From Sashavirus BDX09P1: a stretch of DNA of 58,371 nt. The notes under the pieces were generated by a model. That model did not search any database. It was given only the letters and a program-made list of their open reading frames with translations, and was not told the origin of the DNA. The stretch is taken from sequence record OZ035775.1; one strand, given 5' to 3'. Both the position numbers and the translations under genes were made by a program. Of this stretch, positions 32,849-51,713 are shown in pieces. Numbering within the stretch: the stretch's first letter is position 1; each line of letters opens with the position of its first letter.

Positions 32849-33204
32849 TCGGTGACCGCTACGATATTGATAAATGGAATTGTACACACGAGGTTAGTCA
32901 GTGGTATCAGGTCCACAATTACCCACACGTATTGAAAACTGTTTCAGGTGATGAATGGGATATTGCGTTTGTCAGATGGATGCGAAAACGTTTTTCACCA
33001 ATCACCGCACCGGAACAAGGCGCGCTTGTACTGATGAAGAACCGATATTCAGGCGGTTTTCATGTTGGCGTGTGGGATTGTGGAATGGTTCATCATTGTT
33101 ATCAGCCACCGGATGATTCACCAGGACAGACAATCAGATCACCTTTAAGTATAATCAAGACAGCACATAAAGAAATCACGTTCTGGAGAATGAAAAGTGT
33201 CTAA
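32845..33204 (+). CDS. tail protein with NlpC/P60-like Cys-His-His pattern (gpK-like)
   Basis: WNCTHEV ... GGFHVGVW ... HHCY spacing. Confidence 0.45.
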   Translation: MIGDRYDIDKWNCTHEVSQWYQVHNYPHVLKTVSGDEWDIAFVRWMRKRFSPITAPEQGALVLMKNRYSGGFHVGVWDCGMVHHCYQPPDDSPGQTIRSPLSIIKTAHKEITFWRMKSV

Positions 33205-35728
33205 AGTCATCTATCACACTAATCCTGTTGAACACGCGGATAACGTTGACTTTGGTGAATGGATGCTGAAACGCTGGCCCGTGGGCACAGTTCGTCCGCG
33301 TGGGTTACTGATTTATAAAAACGACGAAAACATTACCCAGAAATGGGTCACTGACCCCAGCGTATTAACTGATCCTGATGCTGTTTATCACATTTATGAA
33401 TTACCAAAAGGTGGGGTGATTAGTGCAATAACGAAAGTTATTAGCACAATTCTAAACCCCATTTTAAAATTGTTCATGCCGAATACCAGTGCGTCGGATA
33501 ATCTTAAGAATTCACGTTCAGCGTCATCTAACAACGCGCTTCAGGGGCGTACTAATGCTTCACGACCGGGTGAACGTATTTCTGATATTCGTGGTCGTGT
33601 ACTGGCATATCCTGATTTGTTAATGGACTACCGAATCTTCATTGACCGAACAGAATACGAAGTTCAGTTTCTGTGTCTGGGTGCTGGTGAATACGAAGTC
33701 GAAGACGTTCGTGATGGTATTACACCTGCGGTAAATATCAGTGGTGAAAAATTAGACTTTTATAAAAAAGGTAATGCACCAGGGTATGGTTCTCCATATA
33801 TGAATATCGGTGGTGCAATTGATATTAACACTTTTCCGATCATGGTTGCTAAGTCATCGAACGAAGCAGACGGATCTGAAGTCAAGCCACCAAACTATGC
33901 TGATATCAGTAAAGCAAGTTTTAAAGTTTACAGCACTGGTGAAATTGACACTACGATTACCAGTGATGATAACACTACGATTGACTGGTCGGAACGTGCA
34001 CCAATCAGTAGTAAAATTCGTTTATCACAATTTTACAGTTTTACACCTAATACGTTACCGTTAAACACGTATGTACGTAATGACCTGTCCGGTGAATATG
34101 ATGTTATTTATGCAGGTGAGAATACGTTAATCATTGATACTAATGGTCGTGATGGTTGGGATGCTCTGTCTGAAAGTGGTCAGGCTGCGTATACACAGGC
34201 TTACTTGCGAAACGACGGTTACTGGGAATTTGAACCCACTGAAGGAAGCGGAAATTTTTTATACAAATTTTCACCGTCTCTTGACAGTACCACGCCATAT
34301 GTTGTCGGGCCTTATCTGATTGATAGTGCGGATAAGTTGATGATTAACCTTTATGCACAGAATGGCGTGTATAAAACGGACGGTGATGTTTACCCGTTTA
34401 CCTGTAAATTCCAGGTAGTTTTGTCGGACCCGAACGGTGTGAAAGCAAATGTGACACATTCTATGTCTGTCAGTGGTCGCTATACAGAAGCTGTAGGCAG
34501 TTCGTTAATTGTGGACAACCCTTTTGACGGTCCTGTTAACGTGTCTGTAAGACGACTGTCAAATACAGATAAAGATTTCGAAGGGTCTGTTGTTGATAAC
34601 ATTAAGTGGCGCGATTTATACGCTATCACAAACGTTTCCCCGCGTTCCTATGGTGATGTGACATTGATCCATACAGTGACGAAAGCAACAAATGCGGCAC
34701 TGAAACAAAAAGAACGTAAATTAAACATGATTGCAACCCGTGTATATAACGGTGTTGCAAGTAGTAATTTTGCAGACGTTGTAATGTCAATGCACACAGA
34801 TCCTTTATTTGGTCGTCGCACATTGGACACTATTGATCGCGATGCTTTATATGCTGTTAAGGAACAACTTCTTGAATATTTTGGTGACCAACGAGCAATT
34901 GAAGTTGGTTATACATTTGATAATAACAGTACGACGTACGAAGAAGGATTGGACACTATCTGTAACACGGTGAATGTTAAACCATATCAGATCGGTAGTG
35001 TATTGTATTTCTGGCCTGAATTACCACAGGAGCAGTCCGCAATGCAATTCGGTCACGCGTTTAAGATTCCTGACAGTGATAAGCGCACACGTTCTTTTGC
35101 ACCACCTAAAGAATATACGGGTGTTCAGGTTAAATACTTCGATCACAATGAAAAATCATATTTGTATGTAACTAAAGGTGAAGAAACAAACCTTAATAAG
35201 ATAGATCTTGTTGCATGTCAGTCGCGATATCTTGCAAACATCCGTGCTAATCGTGAGATGAATAAATTACGTTATCAACGTGTTACTCACGAGTGCACAG
35301 CGCTTAGTATCGGGTTACAGGCTACCCCGGGTATGCGTGTGGATATGATTGACAATACCCGTATGAAACAACACGAAGGTATTGTAGTTGACGTTGACGG
35401 TTTAACACTTATTCTTAGTGATCCTGTTACGTTCACCACGGGTAATACATACAGTATAACGTTGACACACCGACTGGGAACACTTGAAAACATTCCTGTA
35501 ACTGCCGGGGATGATGAATTTTCAGTGGTAATGGCTTATCAACCGTCTGAAGAAATTTACACGGGGTGGTTACGTGACCGTACCGCATATGTTATCCGTG
35601 CTGATGACGAACGTAGCAAATTAGCAATGCTTGTTCAGAGTATGGAACCGTCAGGAAGGGATAACAATTATCAGGTAGGTTTAACGTGCATCAATTATGA
35701 TGCACGTTATTATCAGGATGATTTATAA
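33197..35728 (+). CDS. tail tip / central fibre protein (J-like)
   Basis: 843 aa, position after K-like gene. Confidence 0.55.
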   Translation: MSKVIYHTNPVEHADNVDFGEWMLKRWPVGTVRPRGLLIYKNDENITQKWVTDPSVLTDPDAVYHIYELPKGGVISAITKVISTILNPILKLFMPNTSASDNLKNSRSASSNNALQGRTNASRPGERISDIRGRVLAYPDLLMDYRIFIDRTEYEVQFLCLGAGEYEVEDVRDGITPAVNISGEKLDFYKKGNAPGYGSPYMNIGGAIDINTFPIMVAKSSNEADGSEVKPPNYADISKASFKVYSTGEIDTTITSDDNTTIDWSERAPISSKIRLSQFYSFTPNTLPLNTYVRNDLSGEYDVIYAGENTLIIDTNGRDGWDALSESGQAAYTQAYLRNDGYWEFEPTEGSGNFLYKFSPSLDSTTPYVVGPYLIDSADKLMINLYAQNGVYKTDGDVYPFTCKFQVVLSDPNGVKANVTHSMSVSGRYTEAVGSSLIVDNPFDGPVNVSVRRLSNTDKDFEGSVVDNIKWRDLYAITNVSPRSYGDVTLIHTVTKATNAALKQKERKLNMIATRVYNGVASSNFADVVMSMHTDPLFGRRTLDTIDRDALYAVKEQLLEYFGDQRAIEVGYTFDNNSTTYEEGLDTICNTVNVKPYQIGSVLYFWPELPQEQSAMQFGHAFKIPDSDKRTRSFAPPKEYTGVQVKYFDHNEKSYLYVTKGEETNLNKIDLVACQSRYLANIRANREMNKLRYQRVTHECTALSIGLQATPGMRVDMIDNTRMKQHEGIVVDVDGLTLILSDPVTFTTGNTYSITLTHRLGTLENIPVTAGDDEFSVVMAYQPSEEIYTGWLRDRTAYVIRADDERSKLAMLVQSMEPSGRDNNYQVGLTCINYDARYYQDDL

Positions 35729-35749
35729 CAAGTTATCTAAGCCGTTGGC

Positions 35750-36145
35750 TTGTTTTTTGTTACAAAATCTGAGCAGTGGAAAGATAAGCAGACAGGAGAA
35801 AAGAAAGAGCAGACTGAATGGCATCGCGTGGTCATCTTCGGTAAACTTGCTGAAGTTGCAAGAGAATACCTTCGCAAAGGTTCGCAGGTTTATATCGAAG
35901 GCCAGCTACGCACTCGTAAATGGTCTGACAGCAACGGCGTAGACCGATATACCACGGAAATTGTCATTCCACAGATGTGGGGTGTGATGCAGATGCTTGG
36001 CGGCAAGCGTGATGATTCTGGTCAGCAACAACCACGCCAGCAATCAGGCCAACAACCGCAACGACAACAGCAGCCACCAAAACAACAAAGCTAGCAAGGA
36101 GGCAATGAGCCTCCGATGGACTTCGACGATCTAATACCCTTCTGA
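35750..36145 (+). pseudogene. ssb: 5'-truncated, frame-broken ssb remnant
   Basis: Translation ...[48 protein letters not shown]...MQMLGG matches the C-terminal half of enterobacterial SSB; the acidic tail PPMDFDDLIPF is encoded in another frame at ~36103-36145; no N-terminal OB-fold half or start codon. Confidence 0.8.
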
Positions 36146-36157
36146 TGATAAAACTAA

Positions 36158-36177
36158 CCCCGCAGAAGCGGGGTTTT
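36158..36177. terminator. hairpin terminator between convergent units
   Basis: CCCCGC-agaa-GCGGGG + TTTT. Confidence 0.6.
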
Positions 36178-36179
36178 GA

Positions 36180-38285
36180 TTATGCACTATTAGCAGGCCT
36201 GTCTAAGTACCATCCGTAGTTTGTTTTAGTCAATTGTATAAGCTCCCCATTTGTTTTGTACTGAGTAACACCATGCGACGTATTGTACATTATTCTGTCA
36301 TTAACAGAAACGCCGGGTGCCTGTTTTACAAGGGTAACTTCTGTAAGTGATGAAAGTGGCAGTATACGTATTGTTTTACCTATATATCCACCGGTTATAT
36401 TAGTGATTAGTGAGCCAGAAGTCGCTGAGTCGAGATAAAATAAATCCACCACATCGGCATTAATGGTTGAAACAACTGAATTTACGGTAGAAGTTGTTGC
36501 AGCGTTTTCCCTTACGAAAGACGATCCGTTCCAGCGGTACATTAACCCATCTGAAAGCCCAATAACCTTCTCATTAACCCTAATATCATGCGCGTAAGTT
36601 TTAGACGTGTCCACTATTTTAAAAGTACCGCAAAATGGAACGGGAATAATAGTCGAGCTAGTTAAACGGTTAACAGTATAAATGGCGTTGTTCACTGTCC
36701 ACTGCCGCCCGTTCCATACACTCATGAAAGCCCCTGACGACAAAAGAACAGTAGAGCTATATCCGGTTTCAACATGCACAGACTCAGACAATAACCCTTT
36801 ATCTTGTGGGTTACTGAAATCGTTAGTGCAATCAAATAGTCTTAAGTTAGCGCGTCCCTCGAATTGGCCTGTAGGACCAATAGGGGCCACAACGAAAAGA
36901 TAATCCTTATCAAAACCATAATCAGGGCCAACGCGTAAGAACGACGCCATACAGTTAGTGGTAGGGAACTGTCCTTTTACAACCCACTTTCCACTAGAAT
37001 CTTGCATTAATAGCTTTTGAATGGCTATTTTGTACGGCTTAGTGGTCGTATCTACTGCGCGCTCAATGGCGAACGGTGTTCCGTCATAGAAGTTTCCAAA
37101 GCCAATTTCGCCGCCAGATGTGCCGAGAGTATCGGTATCAGTGTCTTTTCTAACATCCTCACCGTAGGCGTAGTTACCGCTATCATCAATTGTGATATAC
37201 CCCTCAACTATTCCGGTAGATAGTTGAGTTAAATAATAATAAGGAATTGCAGGCTTGCCGTTTATGTACCCGACTTGTGTAGGTGCAATTGATGAGAAGT
37301 AAGCACCAGATGGTTTAACCAATGGCGTAATATCAACAGGGGTGCTCCATGTATTGCCACCATCCTTTGATACGACATATTCAATAGTTGATGTTGTGTC
37401 AGGGTTAGTTCCTTGTTGTGCATGCCCCCACCCAGTAATCCCCTTCATTGATGTAAAGAAACAATACAAATATCCATCAAGATTATTTAGAAATAGTACC
37501 GTTTCAGAAGTGGCATATCCTGGCCCTTTGTTAACAACAGTTCCAGTGGTCCAGTTCACACCGTTATCATCAGATATTAGGTAATCAATGTGCATAGGTG
37601 TGCCGTCCTGTCCTGGGTCAATATTGGCACCATCCTTCACTGTATATATACATACCACCCGCCCACTTGGAAGTGACACCGCTTTTGGTGCAAAGTTAAA
37701 TACATTCTCTACATAAGTTTGCAACTGTAAGCGCAAATTATTGTTAAAGCTTCTTGAGTATTTATTCCCAAAAGTGAAATTAAATCTATTTTTTGCAAAT
37801 GATTGCCTTTTGTAAAGCTCAAAATCTTTATCCTTGACTGCTCCGTTAACTAAATCAACTCCGTCATCATCAGCCAAGTCACTTCTTAAACTTGCATCAC
37901 CAACACTAACCCACGCGCCAAGACCAACGCCACCAGCAGTTTCAGGTGTTGAACCAGAAGAAACGGTTTTAGGAAATTCACCGTCCCATCGGTAATATTC
38001 TCCTGTCGACTTATATCGCAACACCTGGTTAGGTAATGTTAATGTCGCACCATCTTCAAAGCTATCCATTGTAATATAACCGACCTGAGATATAGCCAGA
38101 TTATACAGATTTTCTAAACCATCCAGTGTTTTGTTAGTAACTGATTCGCCACGGATTGTATCGGTTGCTTCCAGTGCAGGTTTACCGGTAGCGTCACGAC
38201 TTTTCGCAACGTGTTCAATATGTAAAATCGCTTGTTTGCCTGTTTTCAAATCATCAGCACTGATATAATCGTTACAGTTAGCCAT
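36180..38285 (-). CDS. tail fibre / tailspike with sialidase-like Asp-box (BNR) motifs
   Basis: Two S-x-D-x-G-x-x-W motifs (SDDNGVNWT, SKDGGNTWS); ~700 aa; GGAGA RBS at ATG 38285. Confidence 0.6.
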   Translation of the reverse strand: MANCNDYISADDLKTGKQAILHIEHVAKSRDATGKPALEATDTIRGESVTNKTLDGLENLYNLAISQVGYITMDSFEDGATLTLPNQVLRYKSTGEYYRWDGEFPKTVSSGSTPETAGGVGLGAWVSVGDASLRSDLADDDGVDLVNGAVKDKDFELYKRQSFAKNRFNFTFGNKYSRSFNNNLRLQLQTYVENVFNFAPKAVSLPSGRVVCIYTVKDGANIDPGQDGTPMHIDYLISDDNGVNWTTGTVVNKGPGYATSETVLFLNNLDGYLYCFFTSMKGITGWGHAQQGTNPDTTSTIEYVVSKDGGNTWSTPVDITPLVKPSGAYFSSIAPTQVGYINGKPAIPYYYLTQLSTGIVEGYITIDDSGNYAYGEDVRKDTDTDTLGTSGGEIGFGNFYDGTPFAIERAVDTTTKPYKIAIQKLLMQDSSGKWVVKGQFPTTNCMASFLRVGPDYGFDKDYLFVVAPIGPTGQFEGRANLRLFDCTNDFSNPQDKGLLSESVHVETGYSSTVLLSSGAFMSVWNGRQWTVNNAIYTVNRLTSSTIIPVPFCGTFKIVDTSKTYAHDIRVNEKVIGLSDGLMYRWNGSSFVRENAATTSTVNSVVSTINADVVDLFYLDSATSGSLITNITGGYIGKTIRILPLSSLTEVTLVKQAPGVSVNDRIMYNTSHGVTQYKTNGELIQLTKTNYGWYLDRPANSA

Positions 38286-38311
38286 CTTTAAGTCTCCAGG
38301 AGTGTAGAACA

Positions 38312-38635
38312 ATGTCTGATAACCCAGTGTTGAGGTATTGGCCTATAATAGCATTTGTTGCCACGGGGTTGGTAGGTTACGGGGTAACTCAAAACCAAAT
38401 CAATTCTAATGAAAAAGATATTGCAGATGCAAAAACCTATGCGCACGAGGCGCTCAATCTGGCAAAACGAGTGGAATCCCGTGTGGATGTCCATGATATC
38501 AAAATTGAATATCAGGCAACACAGAACGCTGAAATCCTCACTAGTGTTAAAGAGCTAACACAGTCAACAAATGACCTGAAAGTTGTTATTGAAGGTTTGA
38601 AAGCGGAACAACGTAAAACCGGGAGTAAGCAATGA
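38312..38635 (+). CDS. membrane protein (single N-terminal TM, coiled coil)
   Basis: YWPIIAFVATGLVGYGV hydrophobic segment; first gene of lysis cluster. Confidence 0.4.
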   Translation: MSDNPVLRYWPIIAFVATGLVGYGVTQNQINSNEKDIADAKTYAHEALNLAKRVESRVDVHDIKIEYQATQNAEILTSVKELTQSTNDLKVVIEGLKAEQRKTGSKQ

Positions 38636-49358: not shown

Positions 49359-51713
49359 ATGAAAGGGTTACTGAACCGTAAACAGTGGGTCATGTGGCGG
49401 CTTGAGACAGTCGCCGATCGTCCAAAACCAACGAAAGTACCATACAGCCCGGTACACGGTTATAAAGCCAGTACCACTAACCCTAACGACTGGTCTGACT
49501 ATCACACCGCGTTGGGTATGGCGCAAATGTACGGTATGTCTGGTGTTGGTTTCGTATTCACAGAAAATGATCCTTATTTCTTTATTGATGTTGATAACTG
49601 TCTGGTAGATCAGGCAACAGCTACGTGGTCACCACTAGCGCATGAATTCGTAAACCGTTTTCCAAATGCTTACACTGAAGTCAGTCAGTCAGGAACAGGT
49701 TTGCATATTATCTGTGCTTATACCAGCATACCGGAAGGTTTTAACAGTCTGAACGACCAGAAAACCGGGCTGGAAATGTACTGGCGTGATCGTTTCGTCG
49801 CGATGACGCTCACGGGTAATGGTGATGTTGATATTGATTATACCCAGGGCATTCATGATTCTATTGCCCGGTATGGTCGCATCCGTTCAGACCGTTCCGC
49901 ACGCTGGACAACAGCACCCTGTGATGACTGGTCAGGCCCGGCAGACGATGATGAACTGATTAAAATGGCGTTAAATTCGTCCAGTGCTGCTTCAGTATTT
50001 GGTAATAAAGCGTCATTTGCAGATCTGTGGAATGCAAACGTTGAACGCCTGTCTGTGTCATATCCCAGCGACCAGGGAAAAGACTACAATGCATCTGCCG
50101 CTGATGCTGCCCTGTGCTCACACCTTGCGTTCTGGACCGGGAAAGATTGCGAACGTATTGAACGTCTATTTAACCGTTCCGGACTGGTTCGTGGTAAATG
50201 GACAGATCGTCAGGATTACCGTGAAAACACGATTCTGGGCGCTGTGGAACGTTGTGATACGGTTTATCGTAGTCAACCGACGCTGACACCAGAACTGATG
50301 AAAGCAGTCACACCAGCGCCTACCGTCGTTCCTAATGGTGGAACACCTGCGTACATGAGTGTGAAACCCGGTGAAGGTGCATATGGTTCAAACCACACGG
50401 TTAACGCATCCACGTTCGTTAATAACTATTATCCGAACAACACTTTGATTTTCGTCCAGCAACAGCCGTACCGGTTCAACGGTCGCGTGTGGGAACGTGT
50501 GAGTGAAGATGAACTGAAACATCAGATATCTATGGCAATGCTCGCCAGCGAACCAAAAGCTGACGTGATCAATGGTACGTACAAGGTTTTGTCGTATTTA
50601 TTCACACGCGCTGATCGTGAGCTTGGAACATGGCCCGGCGTTGATGTATCACACTATATTGTTTGTCAGAATGGGATACTGGATGTACATACGGGTAAAT
50701 GTGATGCACATAACCCGGACTTCTTTACGACCAGTATTTTACCGTATAGCTACGATCCGTTTGCCCGTGCGCCAGCATTTGAACAGTTTCTTAATACAAC
50801 TCTGGAAGGTGATCAGGAACGTATTGCACTGTTGCAGGAATGGCTGGGTTACATGCTTGTCAACTCGTATGACTATCAGAAAGCGATGCTGTTGATTGGT
50901 GCGCCACGTTCCGGTAAAGGTACGATTGGTCGAATCATTCAGGCACTAGTAGGTGATGAAGCGTATGCAGGGATCACACTGGAGGGTTTAGCCAGTGATG
51001 CGGTACTTGAAACTGTGCTGGATAAATCTGTACTGTTTATTGGTGATGCTCACAGTGTGTCCGGGCCTGATCGCAACCGAATTCTGGACCGTTTCAAATC
51101 TATTACAGGTTGTGATGCGATTCCGGTTAATCGTAAGTATAAAGGTGCATGGAACGGTCGTTTACCGGGACGTATGACACTGGCTGCTAACAACATCCCG
51201 GCATTTGCTGATGATTCAGGTGCAATGGCTAACCGTTTGCTGATCCTACCATTCAACATTTCGTTCCTGGGTCGTGAAGATACCACTCTGGAAGCACGAC
51301 TGATGAAAGAACTACCGGGGATCTGTAACTGGGCGATTGAAGGTTTGCAACGGTTACGTGCAAACGGACGGTTTACTGAACCAAAAGCAAGTCTGGAAGA
51401 ACGTCAGGAAATTATGGATCAACAATCACCACTTAGAAGTTTTATCAGAGATTGTTGCGAATTGGTATCTGATGGTGAGGTGCATACTGAAGAACTCTAT
51501 GGTCGTTATCGTCTCTGGAAAACACAGGAAGGTGGTCCAGCAATGACTAAAACTGCATTTAGTCGGGCATTTAAATCCACCCTTCGTGGTAAAGTGAAAA
51601 AAGACGTTGTTAATATAAATAACGTACGATTAAACGGTTTCAGGGGTATTCGTCTTCTCCCTTTTCAGTCAACAGCTAATGTAGTGCCTTTCCCACCTGC
51701 GAGTAACGGTTAG
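49359..51713 (+). CDS. primase / D5-like replicative NTPase
   Basis: 784 aa; Walker A GAPRSGKGT in C-terminal half, N-terminal primase-polymerase-sized domain. Confidence 0.75.
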   Translation: MKGLLNRKQWVMWRLETVADRPKPTKVPYSPVHGYKASTTNPNDWSDYHTALGMAQMYGMSGVGFVFTENDPYFFIDVDNCLVDQATATWSPLAHEFVNRFPNAYTEVSQSGTGLHIICAYTSIPEGFNSLNDQKTGLEMYWRDRFVAMTLTGNGDVDIDYTQGIHDSIARYGRIRSDRSARWTTAPCDDWSGPADDDELIKMALNSSSAASVFGNKASFADLWNANVERLSVSYPSDQGKDYNASAADAALCSHLAFWTGKDCERIERLFNRSGLVRGKWTDRQDYRENTILGAVERCDTVYRSQPTLTPELMKAVTPAPTVVPNGGTPAYMSVKPGEGAYGSNHTVNASTFVNNYYPNNTLIFVQQQPYRFNGRVWERVSEDELKHQISMAMLASEPKADVINGTYKVLSYLFTRADRELGTWPGVDVSHYIVCQNGILDVHTGKCDAHNPDFFTTSILPYSYDPFARAPAFEQFLNTTLEGDQERIALLQEWLGYMLVNSYDYQKAMLLIGAPRSGKGTIGRIIQALVGDEAYAGITLEGLASDAVLETVLDKSVLFIGDAHSVSGPDRNRILDRFKSITGCDAIPVNRKYKGAWNGRLPGRMTLAANNIPAFADDSGAMANRLLILPFNISFLGREDTTLEARLMKELPGICNWAIEGLQRLRANGRFTEPKASLEERQEIMDQQSPLRSFIRDCCELVSDGEVHTEELYGRYRLWKTQEGGPAMTKTAFSRAFKSTLRGKVKKDVVNINNVRLNGFRGIRLLPFQSTANVVPFPPASNG

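What the first reader, a model, noticed from the sequence alone, without database searches (positions are those of the whole stretch)
35734..36145. Frame-broken 3' fragment of an ssb gene between tail tip and tail fibre genes
The sequence encodes the C-terminal half of an enterobacterial-type SSB but lacks the N-terminal OB-fold half and any start codon. The signature acidic tail PPMDFDDLIPF is encoded out of frame about 10 codons downstream. It sits exactly at the junction where the tail fibre gene runs in the opposite orientation, which looks like a scar of the recombination that brought in the fibre module.
Basis: partly seen in the sequence, partly recalled or inferred. Interest (0 to 1): 0.6.

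Follow-up and report, generated by a model that had tools for sequence, protein, structure and literature searches.

The report
Dead ssb remnant beside swapped tailspike
This is a non-functional leftover of a single-strand-DNA-binding-protein gene that was dragged into a 9NA/Sasha-type phage together with a foreign tailspike gene; it is an ordinary recombination scar, but it also shows that the scar has since been used as a crossover site for further host-range gene swaps between two unrelated phage groups.

Summary
The SSB similarity is real (E=3e-59 to an intact phage ssb; Pfam SSB positions 28-101 of 104), but two details were misread. Only the first ~27-35 of 161 codons are missing, and the acidic tail (NEPPMDFDDLIPF) is in frame, cut off by one TAG at 36092-36094.

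The window is a Sashavirus/Nonanavirus phage. About ten relatives have no ssb here. Five other assemblies (four independent lineages) share the identical left junction. Intact donors (Skatevirus, Shuimuvirus IME207, ASO78B) have ssb(+), terminator, tailspike(-), so the remnant plus terminator came in with a tailspike cassette.

Three of five carrier lineages have different disabling lesions (TAG, 1-nt deletion, 2-nt deletion). Lineage-private changes are neutral-like (13 non-synonymous to 3 synonymous), and there is no ribosome-binding site: a pseudogene.

Each carrier's remnant groups with a different intact donor, and the carriers have five different fibre modules. One carrier matches IME207 at 90% for 252 nt, then is identical for 398 nt across the ssb end, terminator and tailspike end. 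That places a crossover inside the remnant, which has therefore served as a homology arm.

Verdict: recombination scar, interpretation supported. New instance of a known kind, low to moderate interest.

The parts
33197..35728 (+). Tail-tip (J-like) gene, 843 aa. Its last codons mark the left edge of the foreign segment, because Sasha-type relatives lose homology at 35723.
   Evidence: ORF list; Pfam FNIII-A_GpJ, below threshold; megablast matches of relatives stop at query position 724 = window 35723; Sasha ends GATGATTAA whereas carriers end GATGATTTATAA.
35682..35709 (+). Strong hairpin inside the 3' end of the tip gene. Part of the native Sashavirus backbone and annotated as a terminator in phage Sasha.
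   Evidence: RNA fold -17.2 kcal/mol, z = -6.6; terminator feature in KX987158.
35724..35758 (+). Junction linker shared by all six carrier assemblies. It has no clear homology to either parent, though 35741-35758 may be a degenerate ssb stretch (about 50% identity). It contains a weak hairpin plus T-run (35738-35758) and the TTG at 35750.
   Evidence: Alignments A1 and A2; terminator-like scan hit, but the fold is not better than shuffles, z = -1.0.
35759..36091 (+). ssb remnant corresponding to donor codons 35-145: most of the OB fold plus the Gln/Pro-rich linker.
   Evidence: tblastn E=3e-59; Pfam SSB positions 28-101 of 104; 92.8% nucleotide identity to ASO78B ssb.
36092..36094 (+). In-frame TAG nonsense codon. 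Donors have CCA or CAA here.
   Evidence: Translation; alignment; no tRNA or suppressor gene in the window.
36095..36145 (+). Remainder of the ssb reading frame, QGGNEPPMDFDDLIPF plus TGA. It lies in the same frame as the upstream part.
36156..36175 (.). GC-rich bidirectional intrinsic terminator that came in with the ssb 3' end. It separates the convergent transcription units.
   Evidence: Scan hits on both strands; folds of -15.1 and -15.8 kcal/mol, z = -4.4 and -4.7; the same hairpin follows ssb in ASO78B and HC6, where it is annotated as a terminator in ASO78B.
36180..38312 (-). Mosaic tail fibre/tailspike gene, 710 aa. 37876-38312 is the Sashavirus N-terminal anchor and includes the Tail_spike_N domain. 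36808-37988 is 93% identical to Kuttervirus tailspike DNA. 36180-36808 is a divergent C-terminus, 62% amino-acid identity to the same Kuttervirus proteins.

Best explanation
The stretch is a pseudogene: the 3' three-quarters of a bacterial-type ssb gene from a Skatevirus/Shuimuvirus/ASO78B-type siphovirus. In those phages ssb is the last gene of the recombination operon (exoVIII-Erf-ssb) and converges on the tailspike gene across a bidirectional terminator. An illegitimate recombination once placed a cassette [ssb 3' part - terminator - tailspike distal part] right after the tail-tip gene of a Sashavirus/Nonanavirus ancestor, replacing the native fibre distal part. The other crossover fell in the conserved N-terminal anchor/Tail_spike_N region of the fibre gene. 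The ssb piece has no coding function in the new genome and decays. At the DNA level it supplies a strong bidirectional terminator and about 400 bp of homology to every phage of the donor type. Later homologous crossovers inside the remnant have exchanged the sequence to its right, including fibre modules, while keeping the left junction. Shown: homology, truncation, the in-frame TAG, the shared junction, the independent lesions, the interspersed phylogeny, and one mapped crossover inside the remnant. Inferred: the order of events, that the terminator is used, and that the remnant makes exchange more frequent than it would otherwise be.
For: (1) Homology and truncation. (2) All ~80 non-Sashavirus loci found with the fragment encode a full-length ssb. 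Only the Sashavirus copies are truncated, all at donor residue 27/28. (3) The donor arrangement ssb(+) -> terminator <- tailspike(-) is seen in ASO78B, HC6, IME207 and Skate, and the window has the same terminator. (4) Six assemblies share the same non-homologous left junction: the window, Bas82, 536P12, two IMG/VR contigs and metagenome contig QZLM01004012. About ten related phages (Sasha, Sergei, Solent, AVIO78A, PJ16, PDP46, 9NA, SP-062, SP069, Mulvp2) lack it. (5) Decay: TAG in the window, a 1-nt deletion in 536P12 and a 2-nt deletion in QZLM. Lineage-private substitutions run 13 non-synonymous to 3 synonymous in carriers. In the OB-fold part they run 8:2, against 16:29 in intact donors, Fisher p=0.015. 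Five residues that are invariant in 25 donors are changed in carriers. There is no Shine-Dalgarno sequence before the TTG. (6) Repeated exchange: carrier-to-carrier dS is 0.4-0.6 with dN/dS about 0.1, which is diversity inherited from functional genes. Carriers are never monophyletic in 100 NJ bootstraps and each sits beside a different donor, with IMG pair + IME207 at 99/100. Five different fibre 3' ends follow the same remnant. IMG029198 versus IME207 shows 24 mismatches in the first 252 nt of the remnant, then 398 identical nt spanning the ssb end, terminator and tailspike end. (7) Carriers and many donors occur in the same metagenome, 3300045988.
Against: Three carrier assemblies (Bas82 and the two near-identical IMG contigs, so two lineages) still have an open frame from the TTG to the acidic tail, so expression of a truncated protein is not excluded in them. 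The private-change statistics rest on few events: 16 in carriers, and one codon contributes two nucleotide changes. The 5'-to-3' diversity gradient expected from repeated crossovers is only partly seen, with carrier/donor diversity ratios of 0.33, 0.77, 0.91, 1.28, 0.38 and 1.27 along the remnant. For this window itself no recent donor is sampled: identity to ASO78B is a uniform ~92% and the fibre is Kuttervirus-like, so its own last exchange is inferred rather than seen. The frameshifts in 536P12 and QZLM could be assembly errors. No expression data are available.
Confidence: 0.85

Rival explanations
1. A truncated SSB, or its C-terminal tip, is made and has a function. It could act as a dominant-negative subunit or as a decoy that titrates host proteins binding the SSB C-terminal peptide. 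In this window the TAG might be suppressed, or translation might restart at ATG 36116 behind the AAGGAGG at 36096-36102 to give MDFDDLIPF.
For: Open frames from TTG to the tail in Bas82 and the IMG carriers; the acidic tip is largely preserved (DFDDLIPF, DFDDDIPF, DFSDDIPF); pairwise dN/dS among carriers is about 0.1; an SD-like AAGGAGG lies 13 nt before ATG 36116.
Against: Three of five lineages carry independent disabling lesions. Private changes are neutral-like, 13:3. The low pairwise dN/dS is explained by import from functional donors. There is no SD before the TTG, and strand beta-1 and part of beta-2 of the OB fold are missing. There is no suppressor tRNA. AAGGAGG..ATG is simply the coding sequence QGGNEPPM and is present in every intact donor, and the 13-nt spacing is poor. 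Most relatives lack the element altogether.
Confidence: 0.06
2. Independent acquisitions: each carrier lineage captured its own ssb-tailspike cassette from a different donor at a recombination hotspot, with no shared ancestral insertion and no crossover inside the remnant.
For: Each remnant groups with a different donor and the carriers are never monophyletic. The fibre modules differ.
Against: The left junction is identical in all six assemblies, including ~35 nt of linker that matches neither parent and the extra Leu codon on the tip gene. The first 20 codons of the remnant are three times less diverse among carriers than among donors. The IMG carrier switches from 90% to 100% identity to IME207 in the middle of the remnant, which requires a crossover there.
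Confidence: 0.05
3. Assembly chimera between a Sashavirus and a co-cultured ssb-bearing siphovirus. For example, AVIO78A and ASO78B were isolated on the same host.
For: Both phage types co-occur on the same hosts and in the same samples.
Against: The same junction is present in six independent assemblies from isolates and metagenomes of different origin. Each has its own substitutions and a continuous Sashavirus backbone on both sides.
Confidence: 0.01

Closest known systems
Bacterial-type SSB (Pfam PF00436) of Skatevirus, Shuimuvirus (IME207) and ASO78B/HC6-type siphoviruses
   Same: 85-93% nucleotide identity and 91% amino-acid identity over donor residues 36-161. Same Gln/Pro-rich linker, same acidic C-terminal tip, same downstream terminator.
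   Different: Lacks codons 1 to ~27-35 (Pfam positions 1-27). Has no ribosome-binding site, has an in-frame TAG and shows relaxed selection. It sits in a tail-gene context instead of following exoVIII-Erf.
Gene remnants at 'novel joints' of mosaic phage genomes (illegitimate recombination scars, as described for lambdoid and mycobacteriophage genomes by Hendrix, Juhala, Pedulla and colleagues; cited from general knowledge)
   Same: A truncated fragment of a gene from an unrelated phage, lying exactly at a module boundary, absent from the closest relatives and decaying.
   Different: Here the scar can be shown to have been re-used for homologous exchange: one crossover is mapped inside it, five fibre modules lie behind one junction, and each remnant groups with a different donor.
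Receptor-binding-protein cassette exchange through conserved flanks, such as the conserved N-terminal anchor domains of tailspikes (Tail_spike_N of CBA120 TSP1 / G7C gp66, or the P22-type head-binding domain; from general knowledge), and the 'linker/boundary sequence' idea of the modular theory of phage evolution
   Same: A variable distal tailspike part lies between a conserved N-terminal domain (Tail_spike_N, aa 73-139; ~100 nt shared with many Kutterviruses) and a conserved downstream flank.
   Different: The downstream flank is not a functional gene or a dedicated linker. It is a dead fragment of a replication/recombination gene, imported from the donor group itself.
Annotated CDS Bas82_0054 'single strand DNA binding protein' of Escherichia phage KarinMuster_Bas82 (PQ850612)
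   Same: The same element at the same junction, 93% identical across the region.
   Different: The Bas82 copy has no nonsense codon and was annotated as a 130-aa protein from a TTG start. It is equally truncated and carries four private non-synonymous changes. The paper describing Bas82 does not discuss it.

Membership tests
Functional bacterial-type SSB (PF00436) | Significant sequence homology to SSB | tested here: met
   Pfam E=1.2e-24; tblastn E=3e-59.
Functional bacterial-type SSB (PF00436) | Complete OB fold (profile positions 1-104, including strand beta-1) | tested here: not met
   Only profile positions 28-101 are matched, whereas the intact donor matches 1-101. Donor residues 1-27/35 are absent.
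Functional bacterial-type SSB (PF00436) | Uninterrupted reading frame through the acidic C-terminal tip (D-F-D-D-x-I-P-F) | tested here: not met
   In-frame TAG at 36092-36094, 16 codons before the end. No suppressor tRNA in the window.
Functional bacterial-type SSB (PF00436) | Start codon with ribosome-binding site | tested here: not met
   The only start is TTG 35750, with no Shine-Dalgarno-like sequence in the 20 nt upstream, and it lies in the 3' arm/T-run of a weak hairpin.
Functional bacterial-type SSB (PF00436) | Purifying selection in the lineages that carry it | tested here: not met
   Private changes 13 N: 3 S. OB-fold part 8:2 against 16:29 in donors, p=0.015. Disabling lesions in 3 of 5 lineages. 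The number of events is small.
Pseudogene / recombination scar at a mosaic junction | Truncated copy of a gene that is intact elsewhere, ending at a junction with unrelated sequence | tested here: met
   All ~80 other loci are full length. All Sashavirus copies are truncated at the same residue, next to the tail-tip gene stop.
Pseudogene / recombination scar at a mosaic junction | Absent from the closest relatives of the recipient | tested here: met
   Sasha, Sergei, Solent, AVIO78A, PJ16, PDP46 and 9NA lose homology at window 35723. Sasha has 35 nt between the tip and fibre genes.
Pseudogene / recombination scar at a mosaic junction | Linked to donor flanking DNA in the donor's arrangement | tested here: met
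   Same terminator and convergent tailspike as in the donors. There is 3.2 kb of continuous homology between the IMG carrier and IME207.
Homology arm actually used for cassette exchange | A recombination breakpoint mapped inside the element | tested here: met
   IMG029198 versus IME207: 24 mismatches in 252 nt, then 398 nt identical across the ssb end, terminator and tailspike end. IMG + IME207 clade 99/100. This is shown for one carrier lineage, not for the window itself.
Homology arm actually used for cassette exchange | The element raises the rate of fibre exchange (selected or functional role) | not testable with these tools
   Needs co-infection crosses of carrier and non-carrier phages with a donor.
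Bidirectional intrinsic terminator | GC-rich hairpin followed by a U-run on both strands | tested here: met
   8-bp stem with 6 GC pairs; -15.1 and -15.8 kcal/mol, z = -4.4 and -4.7; tails UUUUGAUU (+) and UUAGUUUUAU (-). Termination activity itself was not tested.

The most novel reading that the evidence does not exclude
The remnant is not merely tolerated. In carriers with an open frame (Bas82 and the IMG contigs) a truncated SSB that cannot bind DNA but keeps the C-terminal tip would be made. In this window the product would be the nonapeptide MDFDDLIPF, re-initiated after the TAG behind AAGGAGG. Either product would act as a decoy for the host SSB interactome (ExoI, RecQ, PriA, the Pol III chi subunit, Ung), giving a phage-encoded SSB-tail mimic for host takeover or anti-defence.
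Probability: 0.04. Interest if true: 0.7.

Novelty: new member of a known kind. Interest (0 to 1): 0.25.

Why it matters
There are three practical points.

1. **Annotation.** The element is annotated as a functional 'single strand DNA binding protein' in at least one published genome (Bas82_0054), and automated pipelines will call it the same way elsewhere. It should be marked as a pseudogene or remnant.

2. **Mapped host-range exchange between genera.** It gives a clean natural example of how host-range genes move between unrelated phage genera (Sashavirus/Nonanavirus and Skatevirus/Shuimuvirus). Both boundaries are identified: the ssb remnant plus terminator on one side and the Tail_spike_N coding region on the other. 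One crossover is mapped to within a few bases. This helps with predicting host-range shifts and with choosing homology arms for engineering tailspike swaps in these phages.

3. **A caution about dN/dS.** A low pairwise dN/dS in a fragment can be inherited from functional donors through recombination, and so does not by itself show function.

Tried and rejected
- **Second ssb in the window.** The only other tblastn hit (50140-50265, E=0.026) lies inside a 784-aa primase/helicase-like ORF and is a chance match.
- **Junction hairpin 35738-35752 as a terminator shielding the remnant.** The pattern scan found it, but the fold is weak (-5.6 kcal/mol, z=-1.0) and the Bas82 version is no better than shuffles. 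I do not rely on it.
- **5'-to-3' diversity gradient as a test of repeated crossovers.** Only partly seen, because segment 80-100 breaks the trend. I treat it as weak support.
- **Amber suppression.** There are no tRNA genes in the window.
- **Mini-ORF MDFDDLIPF behind AAGGAGG.** The motif is ordinary coding sequence (QGGNEPPM) present in all intact donors, and the spacing is poor. Kept only as the low-probability novel case.
- **Immediate donor of this window's cassette.** Not found. The best ssb match is ASO78B at a uniform ~92%. The 3' third of the fibre has no near DNA match and only 62% amino-acid identity to Kuttervirus tailspikes.
- **Literature.** Searches for Sashavirus and KarinMuster found no discussion of this remnant.
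- **Identity of the window.** It may be vB_EcoS-164_2 (PX985797). I could not verify this, and one look-up failed on term syntax.

Full report
**What is in the sequence.** The 843-aa tail-tip gene ends with TAA at 35726-35728. A 710-aa fibre gene runs on the opposite strand from 38312 down to 36180. Between them, one reading frame of the + strand reads ...[133 protein letters not shown].

- tblastn with the intact 161-aa ssb of phage ASO78B aligns residues 28-161 at 91% identity (E=3e-59).
- Pfam SSB (PF00436) matches profile positions 28-101 of 104, against 1-101 for the intact donor.

The SSB similarity is therefore real and far beyond chance. Only the first ~27-35 codons are missing, about a quarter of the OB fold rather than half. 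And the acidic tail is in the same frame, cut off by a single TAG at 36092-36094. There is no ATG and no Shine-Dalgarno sequence. The only possible start is TTG 35750. The window has no tRNA genes, so it carries no amber suppressor. It has no second bacterial-type ssb either: the weak hit at 50140 lies in a primase/helicase-like ORF.

**Whose genome, and who else has it.** The window is a Sashavirus/Nonanavirus (9NA-like) siphovirus.

- *Relatives without the element.* Sasha, Sergei, Solent, AVIO78A, PJ16, PDP46, 9NA, SP-062, SP069 and Mulvp2 match the tip gene only up to window 35723. They have no ssb here. In Sasha only 35 nt separate the tip gene from the convergent fibre gene.
- *Carriers.* Five other assemblies carry the same element at the same junction: KarinMuster_Bas82, Sashavirus 536P12, two IMG/VR contigs (near-identical to each other) and metagenome contig QZLM01004012. 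All share the extra Leu codon on the tip gene and the same ~35-nt linker, which matches neither parent.
- *Everything else.* All ~80 other loci retrieved with the fragment encode a full-length ssb.

**Where it came from.** The closest DNA matches (85-93% identity) are the intact ssb genes of 46-48 kb siphoviruses: ASO78B, HC6, Skatevirus and Shuimuvirus IME207. In these phages ssb ends the exoVIII-Erf-ssb operon and converges on the tailspike gene across a GC-rich terminator. The window keeps that terminator at 36156-36175. It scores on both strands, with folds of -15.1 and -15.8 kcal/mol and z about -4.5.

In the IMG/VR carriers, homology to IME207 is continuous for 3.2 kb. It starts at the first base of the remnant, crosses the terminator and covers the whole tailspike, ending where the Sashavirus fibre anchor begins.

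**Is it functional?** Three of the five independent carrier lineages have different disabling lesions:

| Lineage | State of the remnant |
|---|---|
| Window | TAG nonsense codon |
| 536P12 | 1-nt deletion (frameshift) |
| QZLM01004012 | 2-nt deletion (frameshift) |
| Bas82 | open from TTG to the acidic tail |
| IMG pair | open from TTG to the acidic tail |

Substitutions private to carrier lineages run 13 non-synonymous to 3 synonymous. In the OB-fold part the ratio is 8:2, against 16:29 for singletons in intact donors (Fisher p=0.015). One codon contributes two of the nucleotide changes, so the counts are slightly inflated. Five residues that are invariant in 25 donors are altered in carriers. 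The missing N-terminus includes strand beta-1 (plus general knowledge of the SSB fold). I conclude that the coding capacity is not maintained.

**Why is pairwise dN/dS still low?** Carrier-to-carrier dN/dS is about 0.1 with dS of 0.4-0.6. One dead fragment decaying in place would not give that. The explanation is import from functional genes.

- In NJ bootstraps the carriers are never monophyletic (0 of 100). Each sits next to a different intact donor: window with ASO78B, 536P12 with L009, Bas82 with the L013-L018 clade, QZLM with L024, and the IMG pair with IME207 (99 of 100).
- The Gln-rich linker variants tell the same story.
- IMG029198 versus IME207 shows 24 mismatches in the first 252 nt of the remnant. 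It is then identical for 398 nt across the last ~140 nt of ssb, the terminator and the tailspike 3' end. That is a recent crossover inside the remnant, at the equivalent of about window position 36019.
- Five different fibre 3' ends follow the same remnant in the five lineages.
- Carriers and donors co-occur in one metagenome, 3300045988.

With an identical non-homologous left junction, the simplest history is one founding illegitimate insertion followed by repeated homologous exchange through the remnant. The expected 5'-to-3' diversity gradient is only partly seen.

**The fibre of this window.** The gene is itself a mosaic.

- 37876-38312 is Sashavirus-type anchor (99.6% identical to PJ16 from 38116) and includes a Tail_spike_N domain at aa 73-139.
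- 36808-37988 is 93% identical to tailspike DNA of Kutterviruses RPN242, PC3 and PH4, and to the 72-kb phage nithesis.
- The last 216 aa are only 62% identical to those same proteins.

About 100 nt (37894-37994) are shared with many Salmonella Kutterviruses and coincide with the Tail_spike_N coding part, which makes it the likely right-hand exchange boundary. No sampled ssb-bearing phage has this fibre. Whether the window's present fibre arrived through the remnant is therefore inferred, not shown. Identity to ASO78B is a uniform ~92% and stops right after the terminator, 3 nt before the fibre stop codon.

**Comparison with what is known, and verdict.** This is a gene remnant at a mosaic joint, a well-known kind of feature in phage genomes. 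It is not a functional SSB: four of five defining features tested are not met. I found no paper that mentions it. In Bas82 it is annotated as a functional SSB, and the BASEL paper only notes that the single receptor-binding protein of these phages sits at this locus. The mildly interesting part is the demonstration that the scar has served as a homology arm linking two unrelated phage groups for tailspike exchange. The most novel reading left open, a truncated SSB or SSB-tail decoy, is unlikely at about 4%. Interest is 0.25, and the novelty class is a new member of a known kind.

Noticed in passing
window 36180-38312 (-): The fibre gene is a three-part mosaic tailspike: a Sashavirus anchor with a Tail_spike_N domain (aa 73-139), a 1.18-kb centre 93% identical to Kuttervirus (RPN242, PC3, PH4) and phage nithesis tailspike DNA, and a C-terminal third only 62% amino-acid identical to the same proteins. 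BNR/Asp-box motifs score below threshold.
   Followed up: partly
window 35682-35709 (+): A perfect 12-bp hairpin lies inside the last codons of the tail-tip gene (-17.2 kcal/mol, z = -6.6). It is annotated as a terminator in phage Sasha. It would end the tail operon before the ssb remnant.
   Followed up: partly
L001 4251-4643 (PQ850612 30145-30537, Bas82_0054): The published annotation 'single strand DNA binding protein' (130 aa, TTG start) is the same N-terminally truncated remnant and is probably a mis-annotated pseudogene.
   Followed up: yes
L028 3753-4386 and 6275-6474 versus L027 (IME207): The IMG Sashavirus tailspike is 98-100% identical to IME207's at both ends but only 55-65% identical in the central ~1.8 kb. 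The central receptor-binding part was therefore swapped again in one of the two phages.
   Followed up: partly
IMG/VR dataset 3300045988 (L009-L011, L019, L024, L028-L030, L039, L040): The same metagenome holds both Sashavirus carriers and many intact-ssb donor-type phages, so the recombination partners co-occur in one sample.
   Followed up: no
L090 1214-2854 (QZLM01004012.1): A sixth carrier has a fifth, unrelated ~1.6-kb fibre module between the shared terminator and the shared Sashavirus fibre anchor. Its remnant is donor-like apart from a 2-nt deletion.
   Followed up: partly
window 49359-51713 (+): A 784-aa primase/helicase-like ORF (D5-type by appearance) gave a spurious weak match to SSB. 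It was not characterised further.
   Followed up: no
window, whole: There are no tRNA genes in the 58,371-bp window. The window may correspond to phage vB_EcoS-164_2 (PX985797), described in PMC13507304 as a new Nonanavirus species related to Bas82, PJ16 and AVIO78A. This was not verified.
   Followed up: no
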